NCBI RefSeq assembly: GCF_902713615.1
Contig: NW_024055744.1
Coordinates: forward strand, 346,593-410,592
Length of the DNA stretch: 64,000 bases
Direction: 5' to 3'
Source: Scyliorhinus canicula
Taxonomy: Eukaryota
A program made the translations under genes and the position numbers. Below the pieces are notes generated by a model, which was given only the letters and a program-made list of their open reading frames with translations, searched no databases and was not told the origin of the DNA. This document shows, piece by piece, positions 2,421-44,124 of the stretch (position 1 is its first letter; every line of letters begins with the position of its first letter).

Positions 2421-2435
2421 GGGATAATGGATCTC

Positions 2436-3303
2436 TGTGTCTATTCGGAACCCTGGATATGCGTTACCCCTTCTCAGCTCCCAAATAACAGAGGTCAAGT
2501 CTGTGCTTCTTGGCAAAGGCCAGTTGAACTTTATTTGTCAGCTGTGCAACTGGGAAACTTGTTTTTAATACAAAATTTAGAATCAACAACTAGCCCTGCA
2601 GCAAGCTAGTCAGATTAATTGTCTTTCGCGAATACAGAAGTTGAATTTTCATTCAAATCATAATACGCCAGATAAAATAACTGGGTAATTGCGATTAGCA
2701 AAGCGAGCAGGAAAGGTTTCAGAAATATAGATGGAGTGAGCAAGAAGAGAGACAGAACAGCGCAACAGAAGCAATTTTCCATTCCGGTAAGTGATTCTTA
2801 AGAGAATTGTAATCTCAAAGTCTAGCCTTCTTTTTACTGCTGATTGGCTTTAACTAATTTATAATTTATCAGTTCGACCAAAGTTTCTGTCCATCAATTT
2901 AAGAGATATAGGTATTTGAATATGTTGGTGGAATTTTCCCATTCCATTACTTGCCAATTTTCCAAATTATCGACACCTGCATCTCAACATTAATTAGAAA
3001 ATACACAGCCTTCAGGGCATTATGACCTCACACTGTCTATTACCATGGAAACAGGACTGCCCGTGCTGGAAAAGCAGCAGCAGACAATGGGGTCTTTTAG
3101 CTAGTTGGCGTCACTGACCTTGCTTGTCTCAGGCAATTTGCAAATGTTAAAATCTCGGTTGAATGAAAGAAAATTAAAGTGTATGATCTGGATTAACCCT
3201 TAACGGGTTTCCAGCTATTGTTGCACTCAAATTATGCTTAATGAGTTCTCATTTAAGCCTTTTATCTTTATCATCTATAGCTAACTAGAGCCAATTTCTA
3301 TCA
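2436..3303 (-). mobile_element. Putative 3' LTR of the ERV
   Basis: Starts TGATAG (- strand) immediately after a polypurine tract; AATAAA on - strand at 2530-2535; left boundary uncertain. Confidence 0.55.
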
Positions 3304-3324: not shown

Positions 3325-3617
3325 AAAGAATAATAAGATGAATCAAAATAACAAATATAAATTAAGGAAGAAATGCAACAGGATAGAAGTAAGCGCAGAG
3401 AGGAACGCATTCACTTTGTCTTTCATGGTTCACTTGTTTGAGAACAGCCTTCAGCACTGGAGCGGGCAAAGCTTTGCAAGTGTGACAAGCATTCTAGAGG
3501 TATTTTATTCAAAAAAGTGATTATATAGTACAAGAACAATTCAGTAATAATGGAAGCTGATTATATAATTGCAGTAATAATTTGGTAACAATGCAACAGT
3601 AATGCAGTAACAACAGT

Positions 3618-5024
3618 TCAATAGTAGGAGCCTTCTTCAATGTCATGGGCTGGTGGTGCAGTTGGACCACTATGACCCACTTTGATTGTTGGGGCATTAT
3701 GGGTAGCCATACATTGGCCAATGCATCTGATTGGCAAGATCACTACGTAATTGGCAAGCCCAAAAATGAAAAATAAGAGAAATCCCTGAATGATGGAAAT
3801 TCCTGTGCCGCCCACCCATCCAGAGAGCCATCCCCAGAGTGGTGTCAGAGGGTTGGTAAAGTTTCCTAACGTCTTCTGGAATATGTGCTGACAAGCTTTT
3901 GATTTCTTCTGAATTATCTGGGATGTAGGGGAAATACTCTGCACCAATCAGGGCACAGGTACCACCTTTCTCGGCCAGCAAATAGTCAAGTGCCATCCGA
4001 TTCTGTAAAGCCACATTTTAAATGGCCAGCATCTGGGCTGAAATGCTACTTAGGGCTCAGGCAGTGTCATTGGCTGTTTTCTCTCAGGCTGCGGCCAATT
4101 TAATGTATTCTCTGGTCAGTACGATGATGCCATAGGCAGGGATGAGAGCAGAAAATAATTTCTCAGCCCTGTGATCTCACGTTGAGACCTCTTGATGATA
4201 GCGGTGGGTGAATATTTCTCAAACTGTGGCATGAGTGTCCATGTTTTGGGTCTGTGTTTATAGCATCGGCTAGGGAAAGGGAAAGGGAATGACGGATGAA
4301 GGGGACAATTAATCGTAAATAGAATGCTCCTCTCCAGCTCACTGGTAGCTAAGGGTATGCATTATTACTGCAGATGTAATAGGTGCCATTATATGTAGAA
4401 TATTGGGCAACCACTTGTTCGGACCAACGTTCTGTAAAATTTGTCCCATCGGTGCGATTAGGTAGCCCTTTAAAGTCAATGGGATTCTCTTCATGTCCAT
4501 AGACCACAACCTTTCTTGTGTCATGAGTGCACATTTTACTGGCACTCACATCCAAATAATATTCACATTTACTGTATCCTGCATTCCATGCTCTATGATT
4601 ATAGCTGAATATATGGTCCCAGTATGATTATGACCAGTTGGGAAGGTTACTTGGGGTGGTTTCTGTTTCTGATTATAGACATGTTGAAACCATCCCTTGA
4701 GTGTTTAATGGGTGGCCTGCAGATCGCTATCTCTTAACCTCATGGTTTATCATTTCTTTGGTTCTGGCGTCTCCACATTGGGGAAGGTATTGTCGTGATT
4801 TTGGAAAATGTGCCTTTCTGCCATTTGGGATAAAGTAAAAGGAACAGGCTGTAGTGGGATACCTGCTTGGGAATTGGTCGGGATAGAAGAAGACACCCAG
4901 CACTTAGAGACGTTAAAGTCTCTGGCATAGGTATAGGACATGTAAAGGAACGTGTTAACATTGAACTCCTGGGTAAGGCTGCTGGGCCAAACATGGAACT
5001 GAAAATCAATATTATGGCAAACAT
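3618..5024 (-). pseudogene. env: ERV env, copy 1 (frameshifted, stops)
   Basis: Signal peptide MFAIILIF; immunosuppressive domain LQNRMALDYLLAEKGGTCALIG; degraded CX6CC; membrane-spanning IIQGFLLFFIFGL; split over several ORFs. Confidence 0.9.
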
Positions 5025-5081
5025 TTTTACAGATTCTGAGTTTAGAACGTGCGCTTCACATGTGACGCGTGAATCCATGAT

Positions 5082-6400
5082 TTATTTCCTTGGGAGTTTC
5101 ACGGCTGACTGAGTTGTGAGTAATATCTGGTAGGGGCCTTCCCACTTAGCTGCTAACGGTTCGCGCTGAATTTCTTTTACGTAAACGGATTTGACCGGCA
5201 CCAAGACGTGCCCCGGCCCCCCCCCCCCCCCCCTCCCCCCTCCCCCCTCCCTCAGGAGGATCGCCCCATGCCGCCGACACCTGACAGCATTTGTTATGTT
5301 TTGACAATAACTGAGTAAAGCATCACTCATCAGATGACAATCTGCCTTTCTTAAGTCAATAGTTCCTGGCAGGTACATGGGTCTGCCAGTCATGACCTCA
5401 AATGGGCTTAGGCCTGTGGTTCTGGTTGGGGTTGTTCTGAAACAAAACTAGTGGTAAGGCTTGAATCCAATTCCTGCCTTCTTGGTTGTATTTGGACAAT
5501 CGTTCTTTTAAAATCTGGTCCATGTGTTCCACTTGTCTTGATATTTCTGCATGACAAGGGCAGTGTAGATTCCAATCGATGTTCAGTAACCTGTACACCT
5601 CCTGGCAAACAGCACCTGTAAAGTGGGTTCCATTGTCTCGGTTAATGATAGGTGGTACTCCCCATCTGGGAATATCGTCTTTGTGTAGGACTTTGGCTGT
5701 ATGGGTGGCTGTAGCCCTCCTGATTGGAGCAGCCTCTCCCCATTTCGAGAGGTTATCCACTACTACAAGGATGTCAGTGTATCTTTGACATGTAGGAAGG
5801 GTGATGTAATCGACCTGTTTGTTCTGGAATGTTGCTGCAGGGGCAGGAGCTTTTAGCTGAGGCATTGATGTCATAGGTCCTAAGTTGTTCTTTTGACAGG
5901 TTGCACAGCGGTTTGACACCAATTGTGTATGTTTTTTGAATCCCGTGCCACACCAACTTTTCTGGAATCGAGCCATCATCTTTCCTGGGGCTAAATGTCC
6001 CCATGAATGGATCTGTTGGGCCAGAAATGGCATCAGTGCCTGTGGGGCAACTGGTTTATCCGTCTGAACTTGTCTCCAAATATCATCATCATACCACTGG
6101 ATACCTGAGTCTAACCATGATCATTTCTTTTCTTGTGCAGTGTCATGTTGCATTTCACGTAGATCTTGTAATAAATCGGTCACTCCCAATTTGTAGATGT
6201 GTCTTGGTTCTGCTGAAGAATCCCACTGGGAGGAAGCTTCCTTTGCTACTCGGTCTGCAAGGGCATTTCCTTGTGCTTCTATAGAGTTGTCTTCAGTATG
6301 GGCCTTACACTTTAGAATGGATACTTCCTTTGGCAAAGCTATGGCTTCTCAGAGGTCATCATTTCAGTGGTGGGAGTCTAGAACTCGCTGTCTGACAGGG
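5082..6400 (-). pseudogene. pol: ERV pol (RNase H C-terminus + integrase), copy 1, 5'-truncated
   Basis: RNase H KCKAH...GNALAD; integrase HSWGH/CATC zinc knuckle, DYITL...DNGTHF core, KWEGPYQILLTT GPY/F motif. Confidence 0.9.
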
Positions 6401-6759
6401 TCATAGAAGCAGAAATCCTGATCACTTTAAAATTAATGTCTTGGATATCCAATTGAAGGACTGGGACATACAGGACAATCGACTGAGATCTGCAAAATGG
6501 GATTAAGCTGAATAGCTCCACTTCAGCTAGCACTCACACGATGGGCCAAATGGCCTCTCTCTGTACCAGAACTTTGCGGTTTTTACTCTGAGAGTTGGAG
6601 TTTGTTTCTGATGATAATACCCTCTAAGGGACTGGAGTTTAACATTCTAGGATATTGGTGAAATAAATCAGCTGCTTTAAACACGATGTAGATTCTTGTC
6701 TTTCCCGCCTGAGTGTTTAACATCACCTGGCTGGAGTTCAAAAAGGACAATCTCACTTC

Positions 6760-7084
6760 ATAGAATCAGAGAATTTACAGTGCAGAAGGAGGATATTCGG
6801 CTCATCGAGTCTGGACCAGCCCAAGGAAAGAGCATCCTACTTAAGCCCACGCCTCCACCCTATCCCCGTAACCCCACCTAACCTTTTTGAACACAAAGGG
6901 CAATTTAGCATAGTCAATCCACCTAACCTGCACATCTTTGGAGTGTGGGAAGAAACCGGAGCACCCGGAGGAAACCCACGCAGACACGGGGAGAACTTGC
7001 AGACTCCGCACAGACAGTGACCCAAGCAGGGAATCGAATGTGGGTCCCTGGTGCTGTGAAGCAACAGTGCTACTGTGCTGCCCT
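6760..7084 (-). mobile_element. tRNA-derived V-SINE (HE1-like)
   Basis: Reverse complement of GGGCAGCAC..., B-box-like segment, TGGGTTTCCTCCGGGTGCTCCGG core, CR1-like tail. Confidence 0.85.
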
Positions 7085-7089
7085 TGCAT

Positions 7090-7700
7090 CCAAGCTCCCG
7101 GATTGTCTGTCTTCTCTCTGGGTAAGATTCTGTTTGTCTCTTGTATTCACCGCTGTGACAGGGCGGAGACCTGATGGAAGGGATTCAGACATGAAAGTTC
7201 TGGGGGAAATGGGCAAGGATTTGGGAGGTGACAACATGTTGAAATAGTTTGGAGAGGAGAGGGAGGTTGAAGATGAGGCAGTAATTTGTAAGGATGGCAG
7301 AGTCATGGGTTTGTTTTATTGAGGAGGGGGTGATGATGGCAGATTTGAAGGACAGACGGACAGTACCTGAAGAGAGAGAAATGTTGACAATATCCATGGA
7401 CATAGGGTAGTTGGCTGATCAGTAGCTCAGTGGGAATAGGGTCGATGGAGCAGGAGCTGGGTCTCATGGACAAGATGAGCTCTGAGAGGGCATGAGGGGA
7501 GATGGGAGAGAAACTAGAGAAAGATGTGGGTTCAGGGCTTGGGAAAGGATGAAATTTAGACGCAGTTTGGTCCGGTGGGCTCGTGGAAGGGAGGGAAGCA
7601 GCAGAGGCAGCTGATCGGATTGACTCAATCTCAGTCACAAAGAAGCTCCACAAGCCCCTCACACCTTGTTGGAGGTGAGGATGGAAAAGACAGGGGAGAG
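7090..7700 (-). mobile_element. L2 LINE fragment
   Basis: SAIITP...NYCLIFNLPLLSKLF resembles the L2 NYRPISNLPFLSK motif; paralog at 26690-27310. Confidence 0.75.
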
Positions 7701-7780
7701 CGAGAGTATTTCAAAAGGAACTAACTTGTGTCAGAGATATTAAAAAGTTTCAGCACACTGCGTATTTAACACAAATCTAA

Positions 7781-7786
7781 TTTATT
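7781..7786 (-). promoter_or_regulatory. Poly(A) signal of ZNF gene 1
   Basis: AATAAA ~120 nt after stop; conserved at 27375-27380 in the paralog. Confidence 0.6.
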
Positions 7787-7907
7787 TGACTTTTAGCCAG
7801 AATATTAGCCCCTGTAAATGGGCTGGAGTTTGTTATCAGCAGAAAGAGACCCAAATGAACATGGTTCAGTCCTGAATGTGAGGAACACGAAAATTAATTC
7901 ATTGTGG

Positions 7908-9251
7908 TTACTGGTGGCCCCGTTGGTGCTGCTGCAGGTTGGATGACTGAGTGAATCCCTTCCCACACTCTGAGCAGGTGAATGGTTTCTCCCCAGTGTG
8001 AATTCGCTGGTGCCTCTGCAGGTCATATGATCGTGTGAATCGCTTCCCACACTGGGAGCAGGTGAATGGCCTCTCCCCAGTGTGAATTCGCTGGTGCTTC
8101 TGCAGGTTGGATGAATGAGTGAATCCCTTCCCACACTCTGAGCAGGTGAATGGTCTCTCATCAGTGTGAACTCGCTGGTGACTCAGCAGGTTGGATGACT
8201 GAGTGAATCCCTTCCCACACTTGATGCAGGCGAATGGCCTCTCCACTGTATGAATTCGCTGATGTACGATGAGCTGAGATGATCGTCTGAACCCAGTCCC
8301 GCAGTGAGAGCACCTATACGGTCTCTCGTCAGTGTGAACACGTTGATGGTACATCAGATTCCTAGAATGTTTATAGCATTTCCCGCAGTCTGGACATTGA
8401 AACGGTCTCTCCCCAGTGTGAACTCGCTGGTGTGCCGACAGAGTGGATGACTGAGTGAATCCCTTCCCACACTTGGAGCAGGTGAATGGCCTTTCCCCAG
8501 TGTGAACTCGCTGGTGACTCAGCAGGGAGGATGAATCACTGAATCCCTTCCCGCACTTGGAACAGGTGAATGGTCTCTCCCCAGTGTGAACTCGCTGGTG
8601 CTTCTGAAGGTTGGATGACAGAGTGAATCCCTTCCCACACTCTGAACAAGCGAATGGCCTCTCCCCAGTGTGAACTCGCTGGTGACTCAGCAGATGGGAT
8701 GACCGAGTGAATCCCTTCCCACACTTGGAGCAGGTGAATGGTCTCTCCCCAGTGTGAACTCGCTCGTGTCTTAGCAGGTGGGATGACCGAGTGAATCCCT
8801 TCCCACACTCAGAGCAGGTGAATGGTCTCTCCCCAGTGTGAACTCGCTGGTGTGCGGACAAAGTGGATGACTGAGTGAATCCCTTCCCACACTGAGAGCA
8901 GGGGAACGGCCTCTCCCCAGTGTGAACTCGCTGGTGCCTCAGCAGGTTGGATGTATCACTGAATCCCTTCCCACACATGGAGCATGTGAATGGTCTCTGC
9001 CCAGTGTGAATTCGCTGGTGTGTGGACAGAGTGGATGACTGAGTGAATCTCTTCCCACACTTGGAGCAGGTGAATGGTCTCTCCCCAGTGTGACTGCGTC
9101 GATGAGTTTCCAGCTGGGATGGGGAAGTGAATCCCTTCCCACAGTCCGCACATTTCCACAGTTTCTCCTCAGTGTGACTGCATTTCTGTCTCATGGGGCC
9201 CGATGACGTGTACGGGTTCTCCCCACTGTGAACGATGCTTTTTCCTTCCAT
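7908..9251 (-). CDS. C2H2 zinc-finger protein, 15 tandem fingers, 447 aa (ZNF-1)
   Basis: CxxCxxxFxxxxxLxxHxxxH repeats with TGERPF linkers; start MEGKS taken downstream of a polypyrimidine/CAG acceptor ending at 9360 (exon starts 9359). Confidence 0.93.
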
Positions 9252-9682
9252 GTTCAAAATCCAATGATATTCAGGATATGATAAATTGAGGGCTCTGTCA
9301 GATCCTGATGTGATGCTTGGTTTGAGTTTCTGGACTTTGAAGCCTCCCCTTCGAACGCCCTGTGAAACTGATTTAAAACAGAAAATAGAGAGTGAGAGAG
9401 AACCCACAAAAACACAAAGGCAGGTTGTGAAATTGAGCTGAATGAATCTGGTCATTCGTGGGGCCGGCACTGGGAAAAAGTGACCATGAAAACTGCTGGA
9501 TTGTCACAAAAACCCAATTGGCCTCTTTAGGAGAATAGAGGAAGAGGTGAAGAGGGATTTTGTATATTTACAAGACATATTAAAGAGAATAGATGGAAAG
9601 CAAATTTGATCGAGCTTCATAAACAGTAATATTGATTTTGAAACAGGGAAGCCAGACTTCCGGTGGCACAGTGATTAGCTCA

Positions 9683-10068
9683 CTACCAGACGGATGAGCC
9701 CAGCTGAGCAGCAGTTACTCCTTCGGACTCGATAGATCCAGAATCGAACAGCGGCCACTGTTTCTCTGACCTAAGCCGGGTGCCCGAAGTTAAGTACAGG
9801 TTGTCTTAGTCAATAGGTGTAGTTAACTAGTAGTGTTTATGTTGCATGACTAATAGTTTGTAAATAAAGTAGCCGTGACCTTGAACTAACTAACTGGTGT
9901 TTGGCTCTTTGATCGATAGCCGATTGAACCTTGTGGTGGTATCATTTGATACCCAGCGACTCGAAGCACTAGAATATAGATAACATAGAAAGGGCAAACT
10001 CTCTGATTGCCATAATTGGAACAGACCCACAGAAAGGAGTAAAAAAGTAAAAGAAGAAAAGGCAACAA
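9683..10068 (+). mobile_element. LTR-like fragment (R-U5-like) replacing a SINE interior
   Basis: AATAAA at ~9863, ends ...ggcaaCA; flanked by a SINE head and tail that are joined by a normal SINE body in the paralog at 29800-30143. Confidence 0.45.
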
Positions 10069-10547
10069 TTTGATTGGTTGATTGGCCTCCTTCTGTACTG
10101 AAGGAATTCTATGGTTCTAAGACTCCATTTGTCAACAAACTATTCGTCAATAATTTGGTTTTCTGCAATTTTGATTAGTCGCCTCAGATTGAATCAAGGC
10201 ATCAGAAACAGGAACAGGAGTCAGTAATTCAGCCCATGTTCTAACCATGAGAGGATATTTTGAAGCCAAAGAGATGTTCTGAAGCATCAACACCAGGATG
10301 TGTAAAGAAATAGGACAGGAATCTGTGTCTTTGCTGCATCATCAACAGTTCAAGGGTCAAGCATTGCTTCCTGAGATTGGAAGGTAACTCACGTAGTTCC
10401 CACATTCCAAAGAGTCAGGGAACGACACGCCCCTCAATCACAGGGAAGATGCTTGAAGGATCCAAACTGATTCAGTTTCTGATTACTGGGGTAGAGAAGG
10501 AGCCATTAGAGATTCTCGAATGGCTTCTCAAAAACAAGGTCATGTCT

Positions 10548-11710: not shown

Positions 11711-12524
11711 CTTCAATGTGATGGAAACTGACAGCTGCAACCTGTCAGTATTTGAAAGATATTTACAAATAATTTAAGAGTTTCTTACAGTTGGGGCCTT
11801 TCTCTGTCCTGTCCATTCGAGGTGTTTGATAACAGCCTTTCTCCTGTGAATATCTAGCTGGAGTTTTGGGACCTGATGTGTTTCCTTGTTCATCTTGTTG
11901 ACTCTAAACATTGAATCTTGTGGTTCAGACACCAGAGAATCAAACTCCCAACAACAGATTGTCTGTTACTGACTTTCTTAACAGCTCTGCAATAAAACAG
12001 ACAGTCAAATCCTTACATGGTTCTGGTCCTCAGTGACATACTTAAATGATCAGCTTTAGATGTAATTCATATATTCCACAGGAAACTAAAGCGCTTCCTG
12101 CAAGCCAGAGAGTAAGGGAGTGAATCTGAACCGTGTCCCTGGGAAAGGAGCACCCTCGGGGACCAGTCATCTGCCTTTCACTCGGGGACTGGGACCGAGC
12201 CGCAAACCACCCATCAAGGAAGCCCACAAAGCTGGCCTGGCTTTCAAATCGGCCTATGGGGAGGTATATTAAGCCCGCCTCCACTCATAACACCAATCGC
12301 AGCTGGAAATCGGAGTAGGAAATCATTAACCAGTCGCTGTGTGTGCAGGAAATCATTAACCAGTGGCTCTGAGTGCGGGAATTCATTAAACAGTGAACTT
12401 TGTGTTAATTTTCGGAAAACCACTTTTACTTGGAATTATTTTTCCATGGAAGTGGATGATCAGCCATGATCATATTAGAGAACAGAGCATGCTCAATGGG
12501 ATGAATGGCCTGCTCCATTCTTAT

Positions 12525-13490: not shown

Positions 13491-13802
13491 TGCTCTGTGT
13501 AGATGAATGTGGGTCACACTCCAGCTTTTCACACTTTGAGCCGGTGTTTTCTCTTTCTGCCCGTGTTTATCCATGTCAAATGTTTAAATATTCAGGAGGA
13601 ACAATGTTTATGATGAAACCCGATCAAGCCCCTCGTCTGGAGCCTCAGCCACAGGCTCCAGCTGGTGTGTAAACTGTAACCAGATCCCAGCAGGATTAAA
13701 ACAAGCTGACAAGCGGCAGTAGCTCCTTGTACAGCGAAAGCTGCTCCCGGACCGTCAGCAGATACAGGACCGAAGAAGACCCTCAAACTCTTCACCATAA
13801 AT

Positions 13803-14984: not shown

Positions 14985-16917
14985 GCCAGGGGGCAGGACG
15001 CTGTTGCCGGTGGTGTGGCCTCCTCTCCTCCCCCTGCTCCTCCTCCTGGGTCCGGGGCTCGGCTGCCCCTCCGACTGCCTCTGCTGGAGCCCCAACCGGA
15101 CGGTGAGCTGCTCGTCCCGGGGGCTGGAGGCGCTGCCGCGGGGGATCCCGGCTGGCACACGGGCGCTGGACCTGAGCGGCAACCGGCTGGAGCGGCTGGA
15201 CTGGGGCCCGGCGCGAGGCCTGAGCCGTCGGCTGGAGGAGCTGGAATTGGGCCATAACCGGCTGCGGGAGCTGGAAGCCGGCGCCCTGGGTGGCCTGGAG
15301 CGGCTAAGGCGCCTGGGCCTAGGCCACAACCTCCTGCGCTACCTGCAGCCCGGAGCCCTCCGCGGCCTGGCCGCCCTCCACAGCCTGGAGCTGGCCGGCA
15401 ACCCGCTGCTGCTGCTCAGCGATCACACCTTCCGCGGCCTGGCCGCCCTGCGCACCCTCAGTCTGGGCTCCCCCGAGCTGGCCTGGGCCGGCCCGCAGGC
15501 CTGGGCAGGCCTCAGCGGCCTCAACCAACTCACCGTCCGCGGCGCCGCGCTGGCCTGGCCGCCTGGGCCTGTCCTCTCCCCCCTCCTCAATCTGACCGCC
15601 CTCCGCCTGCTGGCCTTTCCCAAGGCCACCGCCCTGCCCGGCCGCCCCTTCCAGGGCCTCTCCCGTCTCCGCCTGCTGGAAATCGACTCCTGGGCCTCAC
15701 TGGCCCAACTAGGCCCCGATTGCCTCCTGGGCCTCAATTTGGTCTGGCTCTCAGTCACCCGCTGCAACCTCAGCGACGTTCCCTATGCCAGCCTGAGGAC
15801 TCAGGCCTACCTGCGCTTCCTCAACCTCTCCCACAATCCCATCACTGCCATCCGCGGAGCGCTGCTGCAGCATGTGACCCGCCTGGAGGAGCTGCGATTG
15901 GTGGGCGGCCGCCTGCGCGTCATCCATGACGCCGCCTTCCGGGGCCTTATCTACTTCCGGCTGCTGGACGTCACGGCCAATCAGCTGGCCAGCCTGCCGG
16001 CCACCGCCTTCCGCTCGCTGGCCTCCCTCCAGAGCCTGGGCCTCGGCCTCAACCCGCTGGCCTGCGACTGCCGCCTGCTCTGGATCGTCCGCCGGCGCCA
16101 TCGCCTCCGCTTCCTGGGCTCCCAGCCGCCCGCCTGTGCCTCCCCGCCCGCCCCTCCGCGGGCGCCGCCTGCCCGAGGCCGCCGGCTCCCTCCCTGCCAG
16201 CACCTTCAGCTGCCGCCGGCCCCGCATCCGCGACAAGAGGCCGCAGCGGCTGCAGGCCCGAGAGGGCCAGACCATCACCCTGCGCTGCTCGGCTGACGGC
16301 CAGCCGCTGCCCCTCATCCTGTGGCTCAACCCACGGCGCCAGCGGCTAGGCCACCCCGAGGCTGGGATGGGCCTCCCCGGGGGCCTGGGCCTAATAGCCG
16401 AGGACCAGGGCCTGAACCCCGAGGACCGCGGCCTCCTCCCCGGGCGTCCGGACCCCAGCCTGCCCCCCGCGCCCCCGCTCCTCTCTGGCCCCGCTGTGGG
16501 CCGCAGCCGCCTCCTGCCGGACGGCAGCCTGCAGATCACCTCGGTCCGCCGCATGGACTCCGGCACCTACCGCTGTGTGGCCCGCAACGCCGGCGGCAAC
16601 GCCACGGCCTCAGCTTCGCTACAGGTGCGGCCGCTCTCGCTGCAGGAGCTGGGACTGGCTGGGCGCTCCGACTCCCGGGCCAAGGCCGGCCAAGGCCCGG
16701 ATACCCCTTCGACACCCACACGCTGCTGGTGGCCACCACCATGGGCTTCACCTCTTTCTTCACCGTGGTGTCGCTCTGCTTCACTTTACTCTTCATCTGG
16801 AGCCGGGTCAGCGGGCCCATCAAACACAACATCCATGTCGACTTCGTGCCGCACGCTGGCGGGGGCGGCGGAGGCAGCAGCGGGGATGACGCCAAATACA
16901 ACATGAAGATGGTCTGA
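14985..16917 (+). CDS. lingo: LINGO-family LRR/Ig transmembrane protein, main exon (two frameshifts in this sequence; ~648 aa if repaired)
   Basis: Signal peptide, LRRNT CPSDCLC, LRR array, LRRCT NPLACDCRLLW, Ig I-set (LRCSADG...DSGTYRCVARN), TM LLVATTMGFTSFFTVVSLCF, tail KHNIHVDFVP...KYNMKMV; paralog number not determined. Confidence 0.9.
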
Positions 16918-18399: not shown

Positions 18400-19100
18400 T
18401 TGTCACTGGGTCAGTGACGCCCCCCTGGTCTCTCTGAGGTTGTTTGTGGAGAGAAGCCAGAAGTGACGGACTGTGAGAGTGGAGACTGTTCAATGTTTCA
18501 CATTCGGCTCTGGGGCCCCACTGGTGTCAGTAAACCCCGTCCCCCGACACTGACCTCTTACCTGACACCTCACAATGCCCGGGCAATGATTGACGGCAGC
18601 TGCTGACCAATAGGGTTCAGGGGGCGGATTCAGATGACTGGACGGGAGTGGCTGGTCCTCCAGCCAATCGGAGTGAATGAGGGGGCGGGACTGGGGCAAG
18701 TGAAACATGCGCAGTGCGATTAATGGCGGCGCAACGAAAGTTCTTTCTGGGATCCAAAATCCGGAAAGTTGGGAATGGCGGAAGCGAGGGAGAGCTCGAT
18801 TAGGCGCGTCGTTGGACACACTTCTTAAACATGTTATGTAAACCGAAAACCCGGAAGAATAACCTACCGGTACCGGGGGCCCTGAGCTTTCTCAGAGACG
18901 GGACAGCGAGTCCGCCATCTCTCCACGCACCAGCGTAGCTGCGCATGCGCATTCGCCAACTTTATTGGGGCGCTCGCTGCCGTGCGCGCGCGCGCGCACC
19001 CACCACCTGTGCTGGGGGCGGTAGTAGCGAAGCGCACGCGCATCCACCATCTTCATTGGGGGCAGCAGCAGGCTCAGTCGCCATCATTGTTGAGGGCAAT
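18400..19100. promoter_or_regulatory. CpG-island-like promoter / first-exon region, copy 1
   Basis: CCAAT boxes, GC boxes, ETS-like ccggaa, NRF1 GCGCATGCGC (18941-18950), YY1-like CCGCCATCT; - strand donor CAG|GTAAGA at 18561. Confidence 0.65.
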
Positions 19101-19315
19101 ATTTTTCAAATGTTTCTTCATGACAGAGTGTTTAACTCCGAGTTACAAATTCGTATGTATGAGACGTATGTATGAACAATTATATCTGTCCAGGGTAGTG
19201 ACAACAATTCGTATTTATTGTGCCTTGACACATCTCAGAGAAATGTTATAAAATAACAATTGACAGTGAGCAACATGAGGAGATATTAGATTTTAAGGAT
19301 AATCTTAACAGAGGA

Positions 19316-22890: not shown

Positions 22891-23329
22891 CAGCACAGGC
22901 CCTCCATCATCAGCATTGAAACTGAAACTCCGATCATTCCATCAACACAGAACCACACTGGAATTTCAGAAAACCGGGAAATCTTCCGAGGGCAACTGAC
23001 ACCAACATCAGGTGAAATTCACCAACCGCCCAATGTCTCCAACAGATTGATAGGATTGATGAAAGCTCAGTGTTTAATCTGGGAGAAGGTGAACCAGAGA
23101 ATAGAAATAATTCAGAGTAAGATCAAAATAATGTCCCAGTCAACAGATCAGTCTCCTCTTATCATTGAGGAATCCAAATATTCAAAACACAGTGTCTGAA
23201 TCAAAGCTGATTTAATCAATATTTATACAGAACATCAATGCACACCCCAGTTTTCAGCCTTATTAATATCAGCAGCAACAAACTCCAGCTGTCAGAGTGA
23301 AGATGGTTCGGTCCGGATTTGATTAACAG

Positions 23330-23489
23330 CAGAATCCAAATCCAATCCCTTCAGTCACTTGTGGAATAGCTGGTGCCTCAGCCTGTGGGATTACTGAGTG
23401 AACCTCTTCTCACACACCGAGCAGATGAATGGCCTCTCCCCAGTGTGACTCCGCTGGTGCTTAAGTAGGTTGGACTTCCAAGTAAAGCC
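23330..23489 (-). pseudogene. 3' end of a C2H2 ZNF gene (1.5 fingers, internal stop), fused to ERV env
   Basis: - strand translates [43 protein letters not shown]. Confidence 0.85.
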
Positions 23490-24812
23490 ACAGTTCGAAT
23501 GGCTAGCATCTTGGCTGAAATACTACCTAGGGCTCGGGCAGTGTCATTGGGTTATTTTCTCTCAGGCTGCAGCCAGTTTAATGTATTCTCTGGCCAGTAC
23601 GATGATGCCATAGGCAGGGGCAGCACGGTAGCATAGTGGTTAGCATCAATGCTTCACAGCTCCAGGGTCCCAGGTTCGGTTCCCGGCTGGGTCACTGTCT
23701 GTGCGGAGTCTGCACGTCCTCCCTGTGTGTGCGTGGGTTTCCTCCGGGTGCTCCGGTTTCCTCCCACAGTCCAAAGATGTACGGGTTAGGTGGATTGGCT
23801 ATGCTAAATTGCCCGTAGTGTTCCAAAAAGTAAGGTTAAGGGGGAGTTGTTGGGTTACGGGTATATGGTGGATATGTGAGTTTGAGTAGGGTGATCATTG
23901 CTCGGCACAACATCGAGGGCCGAAGGGCCTGTTCTGTGCTGTACTGTTCTAAAAGAATTTCTCAGCCCCTGTGATCTCAAGTTTAGACCTCTTGATGATA
24001 GCGGGAGGTTGACATTTCTCAAACTGTGGGATGAGAGGGCCATGTTTTGAGTCTGCGTTTATAGCATCGGCTAGGGAAAGGGAAAGACGGATGAAAGGGA
24101 TAATGAATCCTAAATAGCACGCTCCTCTCCCGCTCACTGGGAGCCAAGGTTATGCAGTATTACTGAAGATGTAATAGGTGCCATTATAGGTAGAATATTG
24201 GGACCAACGTTCTGTAAAATTTGTCCCATCGGTGCGATTAGGTAGCCCTTTAAAGTCAATGGGATTCTCTTCATGTCCATAGACCACAACCTTTCTTGTG
24301 TCATGAGTGCACATTTTACTGGTACTCACATCCAAATAATATTCACATTTACTGTATCTTGCATTCCATGCTCTATGATTATAGCTGATTAAACATATGG
24401 TCCCAGTATAATTATGACCAGTTGGGAAGGTTACTTGGGGTGGTTTCTGTTTCTGATTATAGACATGTTGATACCATCCCTTGAAAGTGTTTAATGGGCG
24501 GCCTGCAGATCGCCATCTCTTAACCTCATGGTTTATCATTTCTTTGGTTCTGGTGTCTCCACATTGGGGAAGGGTATAGTCGGGATTTTGGAAAATGTAC
24601 CATTCTGCCATTTGGGATAAAGTAAAAGGAACAGGCTGTAGTGGGATACCTGCTTGGGAATTGGTCGGGATACAAGAACACACCCAGCACTTAGAGAGGT
24701 TAAAGTCTCTGGCATAGGTATAGGACATGTAAAGGAACGTGTTAACATTGAACTCCTGGGTAAGGCCTGCTGGGCCAAACATGTAACTGAAAATCAACAT
24801 TATGGCAAACAT
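23482..24812 (-). pseudogene. env: ERV env, copy 2 (SU frame open for 220 aa; TM truncated; SINE inserted)
   Basis: MFAIMLIF signal, CWVC (CXXC) motif; aligns with 4005-5024. Confidence 0.9.
23618..23951 (+). mobile_element. V-SINE (HE1-like) inserted in env copy 2
   Basis: Full-length; absent from copy 1 at ~4140. Confidence 0.92.
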
Positions 24813-24869
24813 TTTTACAGATTCTGATTTTTGTCAGCCTGCTTCACATATGATGCGTGAATCCATGAT

Positions 24870-26175
24870 TTATTTCCTTGGAGTTTCACGGCTGACTGGG
24901 CTGTGAGTAATATCTGGTAGGGGCCTTCCCACTTGGCTGCTAACCGTTCACGCTGAATTTTTTTTACGTAAACGGATTCGCCGGGCACCAAGTCATGGCC
25001 CCCCTCAGGAGGATCGCCTCACGCTGCCGACACCTGTTGAGAAGCAGAACTGACAGCATTTGTTGAGTTTTGACAATAATTGAGTAAAGCATCACTCATC
25101 AGATGGCAGTCTGCCTTTCTTAAGTCAATAGTTCCTGGCAGGGACATGGGTCTGCCAGTGATGACCTCAAATGGGCTTCGGCCTGTGGTTCTGGTTGGGG
25201 TTGCTCTGAAACTGCACAAAACTAGTGGCAAGGCTTAAATCCAATTCCTGCCTTCTTGGTTGTATTTGGACAATCGTTCTTTTAAAGTCCGGTTCATGCG
25301 TTCCACTTGTCCTGATGATTCTGGATAAGGGCAGTGTAGATTCCAATTGATGTTCAGTAACCTGCACACCTCCTGGCAAACAGCACCTGTAAAGTGGGTT
25401 CCATTGTCTGAGTCAATGCTAGCTGGTACTCCCCATCTGGGAATATCGTCTTTGTATAGGACTTTGGCTGTATGGGTGGCTGTAGCCCTCCTGGCTGGAG
25501 CAGCCTCGGCCCATCTAGAGAACCTATCCACTATTACAAGGACATCAGTGTATCTTTGGCATGTAGGAAGGGTGATGTAATCGACCTGTTTGTTCTGGAA
25601 TGTTGCTGCAGGGGCAGGAGCTTTTAGCTGAGGCATTGATGTTATAGGTCCTAAATTGTTCTTTTGACAGGTTGCACAGCGGTTTGACACCAATTGTGCA
25701 TGTGTCTTGAATCCTTTGCCACACCAACTTTTCCGGAATCAAGCCATCATCTGTCCTGGGGCTAAATGTCCCCATGAATGGATCTGTTGGGCCAGAAATG
25801 GCATCAGTGCCTGTGGGGCAACTGGTTTATCCGTCTGAACTTGTCTCCAAATATCATCATCATACCACTGGATACCTGAGTCTAACCATGATCATTTCTC
25901 TTCTTGTGAAGAGTCATGTTGCATTTCACGTAGATCTTGTAATAAATCGGTCACTCCCAATTTGTAGGTGTGTCTTGGTTCTGTTGAAGAATCCCACTGG
26001 GAGGAAGCTTCCTTTGCTACTCGGTCTGCAAGGCTGTTTCCTTGTGCTTCCATAGTGTTGTCTTCAGTATGGGCCTTGCACTTTAGAATGGATACTTCCT
26101 TTGGCAAAGCTATGGCTTCCAGCAGCTCATCATTTCAGTGGTAGGAGTCTAGAACTCGCTGTCTGATAGGGTCAT
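24870..26175 (-). pseudogene. pol: ERV pol (RNase H + integrase), copy 2
   Basis: VDRFSRW, SIDSDNGTHFT, SSGQVERMNRTLKE (D,D,E residues present); KWEGPY motif; frameshifted and truncated. Confidence 0.9.
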
Positions 26176-26529
26176 AGAAGCAGAAATCCGGATCACTTTC
26201 AAATAAATATCTTGGATATCCAATTTAAGGACTGGGACATACAGGACAATCGACTGAGATCTGCAAATGGGATTAAGCTGAATAGCTCCACTTCAGCCAG
26301 CACACACACAATGGGCCAAATGGCCTCTCTCTGTACCAGAACTTTTGAGGTTTTTACTCTGATAGTTGGAGTTTGTTTCTGATGATAATAATCTCTAAGG
26401 GACTGGAGTTTAACATTCTAGATATTGGTGAAATAAATCAGCTGTTTTAAACACGTTGTAGATTTTTGTCTTTCCCGCCTGAGTGTTTAACATCACCTGG
26501 CTGGAGCTCAGAAAGGACAATCTCACCTC

Positions 26530-26686
26530 ATAGAATCAGAGAATTTACAGTGCAGATGGAGACCCACGCAGACAAGGAGAGAACTTGCAGACTCCCCACA
26601 GACAGTGGCCCAATCCGGGAATCGAACCCGCGTCCCTGGTGCTGTGAAGCAACAGTGCTACCCACTGTGCTACCGTGCTGCCCTTG
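26530..26686 (-). mobile_element. V-SINE, internally deleted paralog of 6760-7084
   Basis: Same position in the duplicated block; central part missing. Confidence 0.8.
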
Positions 26687-26689
26687 CTT

Positions 26690-27310
26690 CCAAGCTCCCG
26701 GATTGTCTGTCTTCTCTCCGGGTAAGATTCTGATTGTCTCTTGTATTTCACTGTGACAGGGCAGAGACCTGATTGAAGGATTCAAACATGGGAGTTCTGG
26801 GAAAGATGGGCAAGGATTTGGGGGATGACAACATGTTCAAAACGTTTGGAGAGGAGAGGGAGGTTGAAGATGGGGCAGTAATTTGGAAGGATGGCAGGGT
26901 CAAGGGTTTGTTTTATTGAGGGGGTGATGATGGCAGATTTGAAGGACAGAGGGACAGTACCTGAAGAGAGAGAAATGTTGACAATATCCATGGACACAGG
27001 GTAGTTGGCTGATCAGTAGCTCAGTGGGAATAGGGTCGATGGAGCAGGAGCTGGGTCTCATGGACAAGATGAGCTCTAAGAGGGCATCAGGGGAAATGGT
27101 AGAGAAACTAGAGAAAGATGTGAATTCAGGGCTCGAGATAGGATGAAATTTAGAGACAGTTTGGTCCGGTGGGCTCGTGGAAGGGAGGGAAGCAGCAGAG
27201 GCAGCTGATCGGATTGACTCAATCTCAGTCACAAAGAGGCTCCACAAGCTCCTCACACTTCTTGTTGGAGGTGAGGATGGAACAGACAGGGGAGAGCGAG
27301 AGGACTTCAA
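26690..27310 (-). mobile_element. L2 fragment (paralog of 7090-7700)
   Basis: KQTLDPAILPNYCPIFNLPLLSK. Confidence 0.75.
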
Positions 27311-27500
27311 AAGGAACTTGTGTCAGAGATTTGAAAAAGTTTCTCAATACACTGCGTATTTCACACAAATCTAATTTATTTGACTATTACCCAGAATATT
27401 AGCCTCTGCAACTGAGCTGGAATTGTTATCAATAGAAAGGGACCCAAATGAATATGGTTCAGTCCGGAATGTGAGGAACAGCAAAATCCAATCACTGTGG

Positions 27501-29042
27501 TTACTTGTGGCCTCGCTGGTGTCTCAGCAGGTGGGATGACTGAGTGAATTCCTTTGCACACTTGGTGCAGGCGAATGGCCTCTCCCCAGTGTGAACCCGT
27601 TGGTGTCTCAGCAGGTTGGATAACTGAGTGAATCCCTTTGCACACTTGGCGCAGGTGAATGGTCTCTCCCCAGTGTGAATTTGCTGGTGCATTTTCAGGC
27701 TTAATGACCGAGTGAATCCCTTCCCACACTTGGGGCAAGTGAATGGCCTCTCCCCAGTGTGAATTCGCTGGTGTGTCAGGAGGTTGGATGACTGAGTGAA
27801 TCCCTTCCCACACTCGGAGCAGGTGAATGGCCTCTCTCCGGTGTGACCTCGCTGGTGTGTCTGCAGGGCAGATAACTGAGTGAATCGTTTCCCGCACTTG
27901 GTGCAAGCGAATGGCCTCTCCCCAGTGTGAACCCGTTGGTGTCTCAGCAGGTTGGGTAACTGAGTGAATCCCTTTGCACACTTGGAGCAGGTGAACGGTC
28001 TCTCCCCAGTGTGAATTTGCTGGTGCATTTTCAGGATTAATGACCGAGTGAATCCCTTCCCACACTTGGGGCAGGTGAATGGTCTCTCCCCAGTGTGAAT
28101 TCGCTGATGTACAGTGAGGTCAGATGATTGCCTAAACCCAGTCCCGCAGTGAGAGCACCTGAACGGTCTCTCGTCAGTGTGAGCACGTTGATGGCGCATC
28201 AGTTCCCCAGAACTTTTATAGCAATTCCCGCAATCTGGACATTGAAACGGTTTCTCGTCAGTGTGAACTCGCTGGTGTGTCAGCAGGTTGGATGACTGAG
28301 TGAATCCCTTCCCACACTCGGAGCAGGTGAATGGCCTCTCTCCGGTGTGACCTCGCTGGTGCTTCTGCAGGTCAGATAACTGAGTGCATCGTTTCCCGCA
28401 CTTGGTGCAGGCAAATGGCTTCTCCCCAGTGTGAACCCGTTGGTGTCTCAGCAGGTTGGGTAACTGAGTGAATCCCTTTGCACACTTGGCGCAGGTGAAT
28501 GGTCTCTCCCCAGTGTGAATTCGCTGGTGCATTTTCAGGTTTAATGACTGAGTGAATCCCTTCCCACACTTGGGGCAGGTGAATGGCCTCTCCCCAGTGT
28601 GAACTCGCTGATGTACAGTGAGGTCAGATGATTGCCTGAACCCAATCCCACAGTGAAAGCACCTGAACGGTCTCTCGTCAGTGTGAACACGTTGATGGCG
28701 CATCAGTTCCCCAGAACTTTTATAGCAATTCCCGCAATCTGAACATTGAAACGGTCTCTCGTCAGTGTGAATTCGCTGGTGTGTTTGCAGGGCGGATGAA
28801 GTGGTGAATCCCTTACCACACTCTTCGCAGGTGAATGGTCTCTCCCCAGTGTGACTGCGTCGATGAGTTTCCAGCTGGGATGGGAACGTGAATCCTTTCC
28901 CACAGTCCGCACATTTCCCCGGTTTCTCCTCAGTGTAACTGCATTTGTGGCTTGTGAGGCCTGATGATCGAGTGAATCCTCGTCCACACACACAACACGT
29001 GTACGGTTTCTCCCCAGTATGAACGATGCTTTTTCCTTCCAT
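27501..29042 (-). CDS. C2H2 zinc-finger protein, 17 fingers plus a degenerate first finger, 513 aa (ZNF-2)
   Basis: Open array with TGERPF linkers; acceptor CAG ending 29155; MEGKS start; AATAAA at 27375-27380. Confidence 0.93.
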
Positions 29043-29307
29043 GTTCAATGATATTCCACTGATATTCAGGATATGATAAATTGAGGACTCTGTCAGATCC
29101 TGATGTGATGCTTGGTTTGAGTTTCCGGACTTTGAAGGTTCCCCTTCGAACACCCTGTGAAACTGATTGAAAACAGAAAATAGGGAGTGAGAGAGAACCC
29201 ACAAAAACACAAAGGCAGGTTATGAAATTGAGCTGAATGAATCTGGTCATTTCTGGGACCGGCACTAGGAAAAAGTGACCATGAAAACTGCTAATTGTCA
29301 CTAAAAC

Positions 29308-29650: not shown

Positions 29651-29799
29651 TTTAAAAACCCAACTGGCCTATTCGGGAGAAGAGAGAAAGAGGTGAAGAG
29701 GAATTTTGTATATCTACAAGTCAGATTAAAGAGAGTAGTTGGCAAAGCAAATTCGATCTTCAGCTTCATAAACAGTAATATTGATACAGGAACTATGCT

Positions 29800-30143: not shown

Positions 30144-30299
30144 AATTCTATCCTGTGAATCTTTATAAAGCTCTGGTCACCACTCTTCAGGAAGGATATG
30201 AAGGTTCTTGGAGAAGGTGCAGAGGAGATTTACCAGAATGATTCCAGCAAAGGAGGTTGAGGGGAGATTTGATTCAGGTCCACAAGATTATAGAACAGA

Positions 30300-31534: not shown

Positions 31535-31760
31535 GCTTTTCCAGTCACACTGAGACCTGAAATCTTCCCTCACAGACAGAACAGACAAACCTTTTACCTT
31601 CCACACCCAGATGCTGCTGATATTCAGGTTCTGATGAATCGAGTGAGTCAGATCGCGATGTGACGTTTGGTTTGTGTTTCCCGTCTGTTAAACCTCCTCT
31701 TCCAGTATCCTGTAAATTTACAGAAACCTCACTGTCAGTTTAGGATAGAAATTCACAACA
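31535..31760 (-). pseudogene. Orphan 5' head of a ZNF terminal exon (no fingers)
   Basis: Acceptor aaatttacag|GATACTGG and following sequence resemble the ZNF-3 exon head at 51800-51990. Confidence 0.6.
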
Positions 31761-41530: not shown

Positions 41531-41899
41531 CACAGGCTTTGTCTGTCCCCAGCCTTCTAGCCCTGACAAATGCCTCCTTCCTCTTTTGTGTGACACCTTA
41601 TCAAATGTATTCTGGGAGTCCAAATACGTCAACAGGACCCCATTATCCACTTGGCTTGTTACATCTTCCAAGAACCCCAACAAATGATTCAAAGATGATC
41701 TACCCTTCACAAAACCACGCTGACTCGGATGGATTGAAGTTTGACTTTCAAAATGTCCAGTTACTACTTCCTCAACATGGATTCCAACAGTTTACCAACA
41801 ACAGGTTTAAAACTAACAAGTTACCTACTTTCGGCCTTTTTGAACAGAGGGGTTACATTAGACTTTTCCACTAATGCAGTGACATTGTCACTGGGTCAG

Positions 41900-42620
41900 T
41901 GTCTCTCCCCCTCCCTCCCTTCTTTGGTCTCTGTGAGGTTGTTTGTGGAGAGAAGCCGGAAGTGACGGACAGTGAGAGTGTCGAATGTTCATTGTTTCAC
42001 ATTCGGCTCTGGGGCCGCACTGGGGTTTGTAAACCCCGCCCCACGACACTGACCTCTCACCTGACACCTCACAATGCGCGAAGTGATTGACGGCAGCACC
42101 TAACCAATAGGCAAAGAGTGGGCGGGTCCGGGGGACTGATCGGGAGTGACTGGTCCTCCAACCAATCAGTGTGAATGAGGAGGCAGGACTGGGCTGAGTG
42201 AAGTATGCGCAGTGTGATTAATGGCGATGGAGAAAATGTTCTTTCTCGGATTCACAATCCGTGAAGGTGGGAATGGCGGGACGGGGGTTGAGGGACGGGG
42301 GGAGAGCTCGATCAGGCGGGTAATTAGAACGCTTCGTGTTATATAAACCGAAAATCCGTAAAAATAACCAACCGGCACCTGGAGATCTGAGCGGGAGCTG
42401 CAGCTTTCTCACAGACAGGATTAAGCAAACGCCATCTTTATTTGGCTCTGGCAGACGTGCGCATGCGCCGTCTCAATATTGGGTTACTCGCAGCAGTGGG
42501 CATGCGCCATCGGCATCCTTCTTTGGCTCACTAGCGGCAGTGCGCATACGCATCCACCATCTTTATTGGCGCACGTACATCAGAGCGCATGCTCAGTCGC
42601 CAACATTGTTGGGGGCAACA
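41900..42620. promoter_or_regulatory. CpG-island-like promoter, copy 2 (paralog of 18400-19100)
   Basis: ccggaagtga ETS, CCAAT boxes, gcgcatgcgc NRF1, cgccatctt YY1-like; - strand donor CAG|GTGAGA at ~42060. Confidence 0.65.
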
Positions 42621-44124
42621 TTTTTGAAACGTTCGTTCATGACAGAATGTTCAGCAAACTGCTTCACTCTGAGTTACAAATTCCTATTTATGGGGCAGAA
42701 TATATGTCCAGGGTAGTGACAATAATTCTAATTTATATTGTGAACAGAATAAAACGTTTAAGACTTTCAGAGAAACGTTACAAAGTGACAATTGACACTG
42801 AGCCACATGAGGAGATTAGATTTTAAGGACAATCTTAACGGAGGAAAGTGAGTCGGAGAGTTTTAAGGAGGAAATTGCGGCCTTGGCAACACAGTAATGG
42901 TGGAGAGATTAAAATTGGGAATGCTGAAGTGGCTGGAATTAAATAAGTGCAGATATCTCAAAGGGTGTGTGTGGAGGAGATTACAGTGATCAATATGATC
43001 ATTACCATGGAGGAAAATAATGAGAAATTTAAACTTCTTGTGCCTTTTAAAAGGAAACATTTGTAGATCAGTGGGCACGGGCTGGTATGAGTAAGCACTT
43101 GGGTAGCAGAGTTTGGGATGGGATGGAGGGGGTTTAATGTTGGAGTTCGGCTGCGAGTGCGTTGGAATAATTTGTTTGAGAGTTAACAGAAGAATAGATA
43201 ATGGTTTCTGCAGCAGATGAATAGAGACTAAAGTGGAGTTGAGCTATGTTCCTGAGGTCGAAATCGGCAATCTTGGTGATGATGTGGATCTGTGGTCAAG
43301 AGCTCATCTCGGGGTGAAATATTTCACCCGGGCTGTGAACAGTCTGCTTCAGCCTCAGACATTTGACAGGAATGGAATTGGTGGCAAGGGAGTGGAGTTT
43401 GTAGAGGGGACAGGAAGGGAATGGGTTCAGTCTTGTCAATATTTAAATGAAGGAAAGTTCTGCTCACCCAGCACTGGATGTCAGACAAGTTTGGACAGTG
43501 TGTGGCTTGGAATGGAACTTGCAGGTGGTGATGTTCACATACATCTGCTGTCCTGCTCCATCCAGGTGGTGGAGGTTAAGTGTTTAGGAGATTCTGTCAA
43601 ATTGTGATTCATTTGTTGGTCCATTGCTTCCTGTTACCCTCACTCCGTTCCCACTCTCTCTCCCTTTCCCTCAATCTTTTTGACTCTCTCTCCCCCACTA
43701 CTCACTCTCTTTCTCTCTCACTCTGTTTCTCACATAGAATTCTCTAGCCCAGAGGGTTGTGGATGATAATAACAATAATCATTATTGTAGGCTTACACTA
43801 ACACTGCAATGAAGTTACTGTGACCATCACTGAATATATTTAAGGCTGAGATGGTGAGATTTTTAGTCTCTCAGGAAGTCGAAGGACATAGAGAGCTAAC
43901 GGGAAAGTGGAATTGAAGACTGAGATCAACCACAATCGTGTTCAACGGCAGAGCAGGTTCGACGGGCCGAATGGTCTACTTCAGCTCATATTTCTTGTGT
44001 CCTTGCAGAGGCCTGAATCTTGTGTGGGCTCAGGCCGGTGGCAGGCTCCCTTCCCTGAAGGACATTAACAAACTAATTCACTTTTCACAAAAGGTTCAAC
44101 AGTTTTCGCAGTCACTTTTTCCCA

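What the first reader, a model, noticed from the sequence alone, without database searches (positions are those of the whole stretch)
4005..10118. A ~6 kb ERV + L2 + ZNF module duplicated as one unit (second copy 23482-30143)
Seen: env, pol, SINE, L2, the ZNF terminal exon and its intron are collinear and closely similar in both copies, while the finger arrays differ strongly. Inference: a shark ZNF cluster expanding by segmental duplication with embedded ERV sequence, analogous to ERV-rich KRAB-ZNF clusters in mammals but with no KRAB domain visible. Candidate for a transposon-responsive ZNF system.
Basis: partly seen in the sequence, partly recalled or inferred. Interest (0 to 1): 0.72.

Follow-up and report, generated by a model that had tools for sequence, protein, structure and literature searches.

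The report
One retrovirus copied with shark zinc-fingers
A single old retrovirus insertion beside a shark zinc-finger gene was copied about 25 times as a decaying passenger while the gene family duplicated and reshuffled its DNA-reading fingers, a process known from mice; these shark proteins lack the mammalian silencing domain, and that they target transposons is possible but untested.

Summary
The duplication is real: non-finger parts are 92-95% identical and no DNA-contact signature is shared between the two finger arrays. But 6 kb is not the unit, and the two copies are cousins, not parent and daughter.

They belong to a ZNF family of at least 262-283 genes. One ERV inserted 1.5 kb behind one member, with a 4-bp target duplication. 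Of 53 related loci, 25 carry ERV remnants, 1 a solo LTR, 20 the empty site, 6 lost the site and 1 is undetermined. The ZNF unit also spread without the ERV, whose env and integrase drift neutrally (dN/dS about 1).

The family is transcribed and spliced, but the upstream exon and leader are non-coding, so the proteins are fingers only. Zinc-binding residues are strongly conserved. Arrays diverge mainly by whole-finger shuffling, with a modest excess of change at contact residues.

This matches ERV multiplication by segmental duplication in mouse KRAB-ZNF clusters, without KRAB. Transposon targeting is untested. This scan has reported finger-only shark clusters before on other DNA. A side finding: the LINGO gene between the copies has 15 copies under purifying selection.

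The parts
2421..2424 (.). left copy of the 4-bp target-site duplication (GGGA)
   Evidence: empty-site paralogs have one copy; solo-LTR paralog L038 has it on both sides
2425..3303 (-). ERV 3' LTR, followed inward by a polypurine tract
   Evidence: 71-75% match to LTRs of free ERV copies; sequence
3330..5040 (-). broken env (gamma-type TM motif); stops and frameshifts
5070..6357 (-). pol remnant: end of RNase H plus integrase; the 5' half of the provirus is deleted
   Evidence: Pfam rve, Integrase_H2C2, MLVIN_C, RNase_H; junction
6358..6757 (.). host DNA flanking the insertion site (not viral)
   Evidence: no match in 8 free ERV loci; joined directly to window <=2424 in empty paralogs
6758..7083 (-). 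SINE (name from recalled motifs)
   Evidence: many copies in window self-comparison
7090..7780 (-). L2-like LINE fragment (name recalled), shared by the wider ZNF family
7781..7786 (-). AATAAA about 125 nt after the stop; predicted transcript end, before L2 and ERV
   Evidence: same signal in copy 2 at 27380
7908..9251 (-). ZNF copy 1 ORF, 447 aa, 15 C2H2 fingers, starts MEGKS
9252..9369 (-). non-coding leader of the terminal exon and its splice acceptor (AG at 9369-9368)
   Evidence: RNA depth drop and spliced loose ends; dN/dS 0.96 and frame-breaking indels
14987..16917 (+). LINGO-family gene riding in the same duplications; this copy has two 1-base indels against an intact copy
18401..19300 (-). 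CpG-rich family promoter-like element with a donor motif near 18562 (role inferred)
   Evidence: 90 genome matches, nearly all on ZNF-family contigs
23298..23481 (-). last finger and 3' end of another ZNF gene, fused to env by a deletion
23482..26128 (-). ERV remnant of copy 2 (5' part of env, integrase, RNase H end), with a private SINE at 23618-23950
26129..27374 (-). host spacer, shortened SINE and L2 fragment of copy 2
27501..29042 (-). ZNF copy 2 ORF, 513 aa, 17 fingers, with internal finger-block duplications (96-99% identical fingers)
31597..31709 (-). upstream non-coding exon A, itself homologous to the ZNF exon's leader
   Evidence: spliced loose ends, located, analysed
41886..42829 (-). 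second family promoter-like element, likely serving copy 2
   Evidence: 72% match to 18401-19300

Best explanation
The two copies are cousins in a large family of finger-only zinc-finger genes, and their shared retroviral DNA is one old insertion that was copied as a neutral passenger, likely by recombination-driven segmental duplication. Shown: one class I-like ERV inserted about 1.5 kb behind one gene's stop codon, with a 4-bp target duplication. Descendants carry a solo LTR or differently deleted halves of it, while sister genes keep the empty site. The family is spliced from a non-coding exon, and the ORF starts at MEGKS. Inferred: unequal recombination between repeats duplicates and recombines 10-20+ kb blocks. 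The same process acting on the 84-bp finger repeats adds, removes and swaps whole fingers, giving each copy a new DNA specificity, while selection keeps the zinc-binding scaffold. Function, inferred and untested: sequence-specific DNA binders that would act by occupying sites or recruiting partners through the fingers themselves. Repeats and transposons are the most likely target class (about 40%).
For: SINGLE INSERTION: env of 19 module copies forms one clade (bootstrap 100) against 3 free copies; K2P is 0.055 within modules and 0.113 to free copies. The same host flanks occur on both sides in empty (20), solo-LTR (1) and ERV-bearing (25) loci of 53 examined. None of 8 chromosome-scale ERV copies has a finger array in the 10-20 kb read. 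PASSENGER: env dN/dS 0.92 (1.19 in copy 2's lineage), integrase 1.02; many different deletions; it lies beyond the polyA signal. LARGER MOSAIC BLOCKS; nearest relative switches between segments, e.g. L009 has an L003-like ERV but copy 1's exact fingerprints. FAMILY SIZE: 283 donor and 262 acceptor motif matches, reversed controls 0; the 100 places listed for each are on C17 at 105-133.8 Mb or on small contigs. EXPRESSION: minus-strand RNA, depth 134-280 in the exon against 4-8 in the intron (run X23); 40, 189 and 65 reads run into exon A in three runs from two studies. NO EFFECTOR: leader lengths 109-120 nt in all three frames, dN/dS 0.96, exon A with stops in all frames in most copies, no Pfam hit. 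FINGERS: 26 of 30 ORFs intact; structural residues dN/dS 0.02-0.05 (p<=1e-9); finger dS 0.134 against flank K 0.064, so many aligned fingers are not orthologous; contact residues change 2.3 times faster than backbone (p=1e-6).
Against: On host-only segments ERV-bearing copies do not form one clade; basal support is weak (55-80) and three empty loci are interleaved, so the order of events is blurred by a burst and by conversion. Some near-identical copies (0-0.4% apart) may be uncollapsed haplotypes, which would lower the counts. Positive selection is only suggestive: contact dN/dS 1.32 (p=0.09) in deep pairs and 0.98 in shallow pairs; p=0.009-0.013 with backbone-matched fingers, a liberal test, and 0.089 at the strictest cut. 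Only 21 of 1137, 62 of 4130 and 10 of 891 reads were at least 99% like copy 1, and copy 1 lacks exon A nearby, so its own expression is not shown. Exon 1 was not seen in RNA. No binding data exist.
Confidence: 0.8

Rival explanations
1. The ERV drives the duplications as a recombination substrate, and the ZNFs evolve to silence this and other ERVs (the full mouse model, and the first reader's idea).
For: About half of the subfamily examined carries the ERV (25 of 53); contact residues change fastest; some breakpoints fall inside ERV sequence.
Against: The ERV-free clade expanded just as well (17 loci, support 100). ERV-bearing genes are only about 9-10% of the family. Clear block switches sit at SINEs (L009; copy 1's right edge). 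No repressor domain is present.
Confidence: 0.2
2. The module is itself a mobile element, or an ERV that captured a ZNF gene.
For: ZNF, L2, SINE and ERV share one strand, and many copies lie on different contigs.
Against: Empty sites show that the ERV inserted into an existing ZNF flank. Copies keep introns and share long, variable flanks with no common ends.
Confidence: 0.03
3. The retained env half has been co-opted, for example as a receptor-blocking factor.
For: 5 of 19 copies have no stop or frameshift over a 227-codon env stretch; some lineages lost pol but kept env.
Against: dN/dS 0.92-1.19. Those loci were found with an env query, which biases towards retention. Env lies downstream of the polyA signal. 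Its expression was not tested.
Confidence: 0.04
4. The duplication is an assembly or haplotype artefact.
For: Most copies lie on small unplaced contigs, and a few are nearly identical.
Against: Lineages differ by 5-9%, with private insertions and 24 distinct arrays among 30 ORFs. The two window copies share one contig. RNA reads are mostly 90-95% like copy 1, as expected from many paralogs.
Confidence: 0.03

Closest known systems
Young mouse KRAB-ZFP clusters (Bruno et al. 2025, PMC12575710; abstract and sections 12 and 13 read)
   Same: ZNF clusters grow by segmental duplication, ERVs multiply by being duplicated rather than by new insertion, and finger fingerprints diverge.
   Different: No KRAB or other effector exon here. 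One traced insertion with empty, solo and partial states. An ERV-free sister clade expanded too. No binding data.
Cyprinid FiNZ-ZNF family on zebrafish chr4q (Wells et al. 2023, PMC10547256; abstract, sections 4 and 10, and passages read)
   Same: Hundreds of lineage-specific clustered tandem ZNF genes, with contact residues changing fastest.
   Different: FiNZ is a conserved coding upstream exon; here the upstream exon and leader are non-coding. TE repression was shown there and not here. The main text has no occurrence of 'shark' or 'chondrichthy'; supplements were not read and may include shark counts.
ZNF-only polydactyl C2H2 genes (Liu et al. 2014, PMC3971581; passages read)
   Same: No effector domain; arrays diverge by in-phase finger deletion and duplication.
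   Different: There they are described in tetrapods and include most of the deeply conserved genes; here a young, rapidly duplicating family.
Catshark ZNF gene clusters noted in a genome paper (PMC11979771; passages read)
   Same: One clause notes clusters of recently duplicated zinc-finger genes on chromosomes 13 and 17, in regions of high diversity.
   Different: The main text has no occurrence of 'ERV' or 'lingo'. I did not establish that G000 is that assembly.

Membership tests
KRAB-ZFP / FiNZ-ZNF | tandem C2H2 array in one terminal exon | tested here: met
   15 and 17 fingers
KRAB-ZFP / FiNZ-ZNF | coding upstream exon with KRAB, SCAN, BTB or FiNZ domain | tested here: not met
   the spliced upstream exon and leader are non-coding; no Pfam hit. 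Exon 1 was not seen in RNA, but the leader's varying frame excludes a conserved fusion.
KRAB-ZFP / FiNZ-ZNF | positive selection at DNA-contact residues | tested here: inconclusive
   dN/dS 0.98-1.32; p 0.009-0.9 by test
KRAB-ZFP / FiNZ-ZNF | binds and represses TEs | not testable with these tools
   needs ChIP or knock-down
ERV-laden, segmentally duplicating ZNF cluster (mouse type) | ERV copies multiplied by duplication, not insertion | tested here: met
   one clade, shared flanks and target duplication, empty sites
ERV-laden, segmentally duplicating ZNF cluster (mouse type) | large multi-gene duplicated blocks | tested here: met
   blocks of 9-18 kb at 91-97% identity including LINGO
ERV-laden, segmentally duplicating ZNF cluster (mouse type) | ERVs promote the recombination | tested here: inconclusive
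   breakpoints lie in both ERV and SINE; the ERV-free clade also expanded
Class I (gamma/epsilon-like) ERV | integrase with MLVIN_C tail, gamma-type TM, LTR with PPT, short target duplication | tested here: met
   (MLVIN_C and TM hits are below Pfam's cut-offs)
Class I (gamma/epsilon-like) ERV | RT phylogeny and primer-binding site | not tested
   RT and the 5' LTR are deleted in the module; free copies were not analysed for this

The most novel reading that the evidence does not exclude
Sharks run a third vertebrate ZNF-transposon arms race, independent of KRAB and FiNZ, with finger-only proteins. Their recombinogenic cluster generates new DNA specificities by whole-finger shuffling plus selection on contact residues. 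The same cluster captured and amplified a LINGO receptor gene into a catshark-specific family kept under purifying selection.
Probability: 0.3. Interest if true: 0.78.

Novelty: new variant of a known kind. Interest (0 to 1): 0.47.

Why it matters
It shows that ERV multiplication by segmental duplication in ZNF clusters, described in mice, also occurs in a cartilaginous fish without KRAB. The empty, solo-LTR and partial states of one insertion give a natural control: the ERV was carried along and was not needed for expansion. The family poses a testable question, namely how hundreds of finger-only proteins act without a repressor domain. The amplified LINGO gene suggests such clusters can seed new host gene families.

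Tried and rejected
- I first read the 34 hits as ERV-bearing. One search showed that junction is host DNA against SINE, and the counts were redone. In the tree, L081-L083 are mislabelled 'noERV'; they carry ERV remnants.
- L022 was dropped as a duplicate of L013. L006, L010 and L017 are cut by contig ends or gaps and were left out of finger analyses. For 13 of the 15 loci L081-L095 the script did not parse the ZNF ORF, so ORF counts rest on the 30 loci.
- A coding N-terminal extension, suggested by copy 1's open leader, was rejected. Env co-option and a mobile module were rejected (see rivals).
- The protein search with the finger ORF returned mostly tetrapod ZNFs, many with KRAB. Three cartilaginous-fish hits were read (P0011, P0087, P0107); none has a KRAB annotation or a shared N-terminal domain, but they are automatic models. 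Exact look-up of both ORFs found nothing.
- The look-up of sequencing runs listed no indexed holder on record as RNA, which is no evidence either way. RNA was laid only on 9130-10540, so the 3' end, ERV and LINGO expression are untested.
- Eight paper searches showed no paper describing ERV-ZNF duplication in sharks or a catshark LINGO expansion. The library lacks most subscription papers, and no supplements were read.
Full report
OBSERVATION. Self-comparison and a global alignment confirm that window 4005-~9680 and 23482-~29820 are collinear, with SINE ends extending to 10118/30143. Non-finger segments are mostly 92-95% identical (K2P 0.05-0.08); fingers are 84% identical, with 84-bp gaps. 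The ORFs have 15 and 17 fingers and share no (-1,2,3,6) fingerprint. The organism is a catshark-like shark: the nearest named relatives of the LINGO protein are Scyliorhinus torazame models at 91-93%.

NOT A TWO-COPY, 6-KB UNIT. An env query against the own genome (40 of 222 candidates scored) gave close copies (89-96%) on small contigs and more distant ones (81-87%) on chromosome-scale contigs. All 14 close copies with enough sequence carry a finger array behind the ERV. None of 8 distant copies examined does. The 4005 edge is a deletion that joins env to the last finger of another ZNF gene, shared by copy 2's lineage; copy 1 keeps the 3' LTR. The window is a patchwork of larger blocks: 1-18432 matches C48, 6995-18432 C451, 14372-23606 C262 and C81, 26558-29196 C66, and 28253-42243 C623, at 91-97%. 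The two window copies are not each other's nearest relatives except for a tie in one 237-base piece, and several paralogs switch relatives mid-module.

ONE INSERTION, TRACED. The ERV stops at 6357, and 6358-6757 is host DNA. Many paralogs join window <=2424 directly to 6358, which is the empty site. One has a solo LTR flanked by GGGA on both sides. Of 53 subfamily loci examined, 25 carry ERV remnants (18 with one shared pol-host junction; 2 with larger deletions; 3 with a variant junction; 2 cut by gaps). One has a solo LTR, 20 are empty (15 match the exact pattern genome-wide), 6 lost the site, and 1 is undetermined. Env of 19 module copies is one clade (bootstrap 100) against 3 free copies: K2P 0.055 within, 0.113 between; one free provirus has LTRs 0.077 apart. 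Env and integrase drift neutrally among copies, with dN/dS 0.92, 1.02 and 1.19. The host-segment tree is star-like, with weak basal support and a 17-member empty-site clade. So the insertion fell during a burst of duplication that also went on without it.

THE GENE. RNA from three runs (two studies) laid on 9130-10540 at 90% or more shows minus-strand transcription, a 30- to 50-fold depth drop at the acceptor in run X23, and reads continuing into an upstream exon. That exon lies at 31597-31709 for copy 2 and is itself homologous to the terminal exon's leader. Donor and acceptor motifs occur 283 and 262 times in the genome; the listed places are on C17 at 105-133.8 Mb and on small contigs. A CpG-rich promoter-like element occurs 90 times, nearly all on such contigs. 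ERV-bearing genes are thus about a tenth of the family. The leader is 109-120 nt in all three frames with dN/dS 0.96, and exon A has stops in all frames in most copies, while 26 of 30 finger ORFs are intact. The proteins therefore start at MEGKS and carry no effector domain. AATAAA lies about 125 nt after the stop in both copies, so L2 and ERV are predicted to be outside the mRNA. Copy 1 lacks a nearby exon A and under 2% of reads were at least 99% like it, so its own expression is open.

FINGERS. Zinc-binding and core residues are strongly conserved (dN/dS 0.02-0.05). Synonymous distance between aligned fingers (0.134) is twice the flank distance (0.064), and copy 2 has internal finger pairs 96-99% identical. 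Contact residues change 2.3 times faster than backbone (p=1e-6). An excess over synonymous change is only suggestive: dN/dS 1.32 (p=0.09) in deep pairs, 0.98 in shallow pairs, and p=0.009-0.089 with backbone-matched fingers, a liberal test.

MECHANISM. Shown: a single insertion, passive decay, mosaic blocks, non-coding upstream exons and purifying selection on the scaffold. Inferred: non-allelic recombination between SINEs, ERV remnants and finger repeats makes the duplications and new specificities. Untested: what the fingers bind and how they act without a repressor.

KNOWN SYSTEMS. Bruno et al. (PMC12575710; abstract and sections 12-13 read) show ERVs multiplying by segmental duplication in mouse KZFP clusters, and KZFPs binding ERVs. 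Wells et al. (PMC10547256; abstract, sections 4 and 10, passages) show FiNZ-ZNFs repressing TEs in zebrafish. ZNF-only genes and in-phase finger indels are known (PMC3971581, passages). [quoted passage not shown] A catshark genome paper mentions recent ZNF clusters in one clause (PMC11979771, passages). This locus works like the mouse clusters but fails the KRAB/FiNZ membership test. Earlier notes of this scan describe finger-only shark clusters, finger shuffling and passenger repeats on other genomes. What this locus adds is the traced ERV insertion with its empty-site control, and LINGO.

LINGO. The gene between the copies has 15 matches at 88-100% on the same contigs. Seven are full-length and open, and dN/dS among copies is 0.18-0.32 (p<=4e-4). 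S. torazame has 7 distinct annotated proteins on one 331-Mb contig. Each of the other six clusters looked up showed a single member or, as far as names were shown, one member per source. Full names were cut off, so the paralog number is not settled.

VERDICT. The duplication is real and well explained: a shark variant of a known process. The ERV is a passenger and transposon targeting is unproven. Interest 0.47.

Noticed in passing
window 14987-16917; G000 C48, C451, C262, C621 (two), C428, C633, C34, C536, C644, C106, C105, C81, C273: LINGO-family gene amplified to 15 copies within the ZNF duplications; 7 are intact and dN/dS is 0.18-0.32. Seven proteins are annotated in S. torazame. It lies antisense between a family promoter-like element and a ZNF exon. 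Worth its own follow-up.
   Followed up: partly
window 31597-31709 vs 9252-9367: The upstream non-coding exon is a truncated duplicate of the ZNF exon's own leader; the position of the start codon (MEGK) has become a splice donor.
   Followed up: yes
window 18401-19300 and 41886-42829: Family-wide CpG promoter-like element with CCAAT, GC-box and GCGCATGCGC motifs (factor names not tested). It may be bidirectional: head-to-head ZNFs flank it here and in C262.
   Followed up: partly
window 44097-45086 (+) and 50495-52020 (-): A decayed ZNF pseudogene that already carries the L2 fragment (about 70% identity), and an 11-finger ZNF of an older MKKPWKC-type subfamily.
   Followed up: partly
window 9680-10075: An LTR-like insertion (identity inferred from sequence) inside a SINE in copy 1's intron; RNA reads from related copies cover it on both strands.
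   Followed up: no
window 61099-61587 (-): Immunoglobulin heavy-chain constant exon with a secretory tail (Pfam C1-set, E 1e-21), placing an Ig cluster inside the ZNF region.
   Followed up: no
window 12521-13494 and 47996-48182: A 69-bp tandem repeat, variable in length among paralogous blocks.
   Followed up: no
P0087 (Heptranchias perlo model): The N-terminus looks like a retroviral env TM region joined to a finger array (recalled resemblance; likely a gene-model artefact), hinting at ERV-ZNF adjacency in another shark.
   Followed up: no
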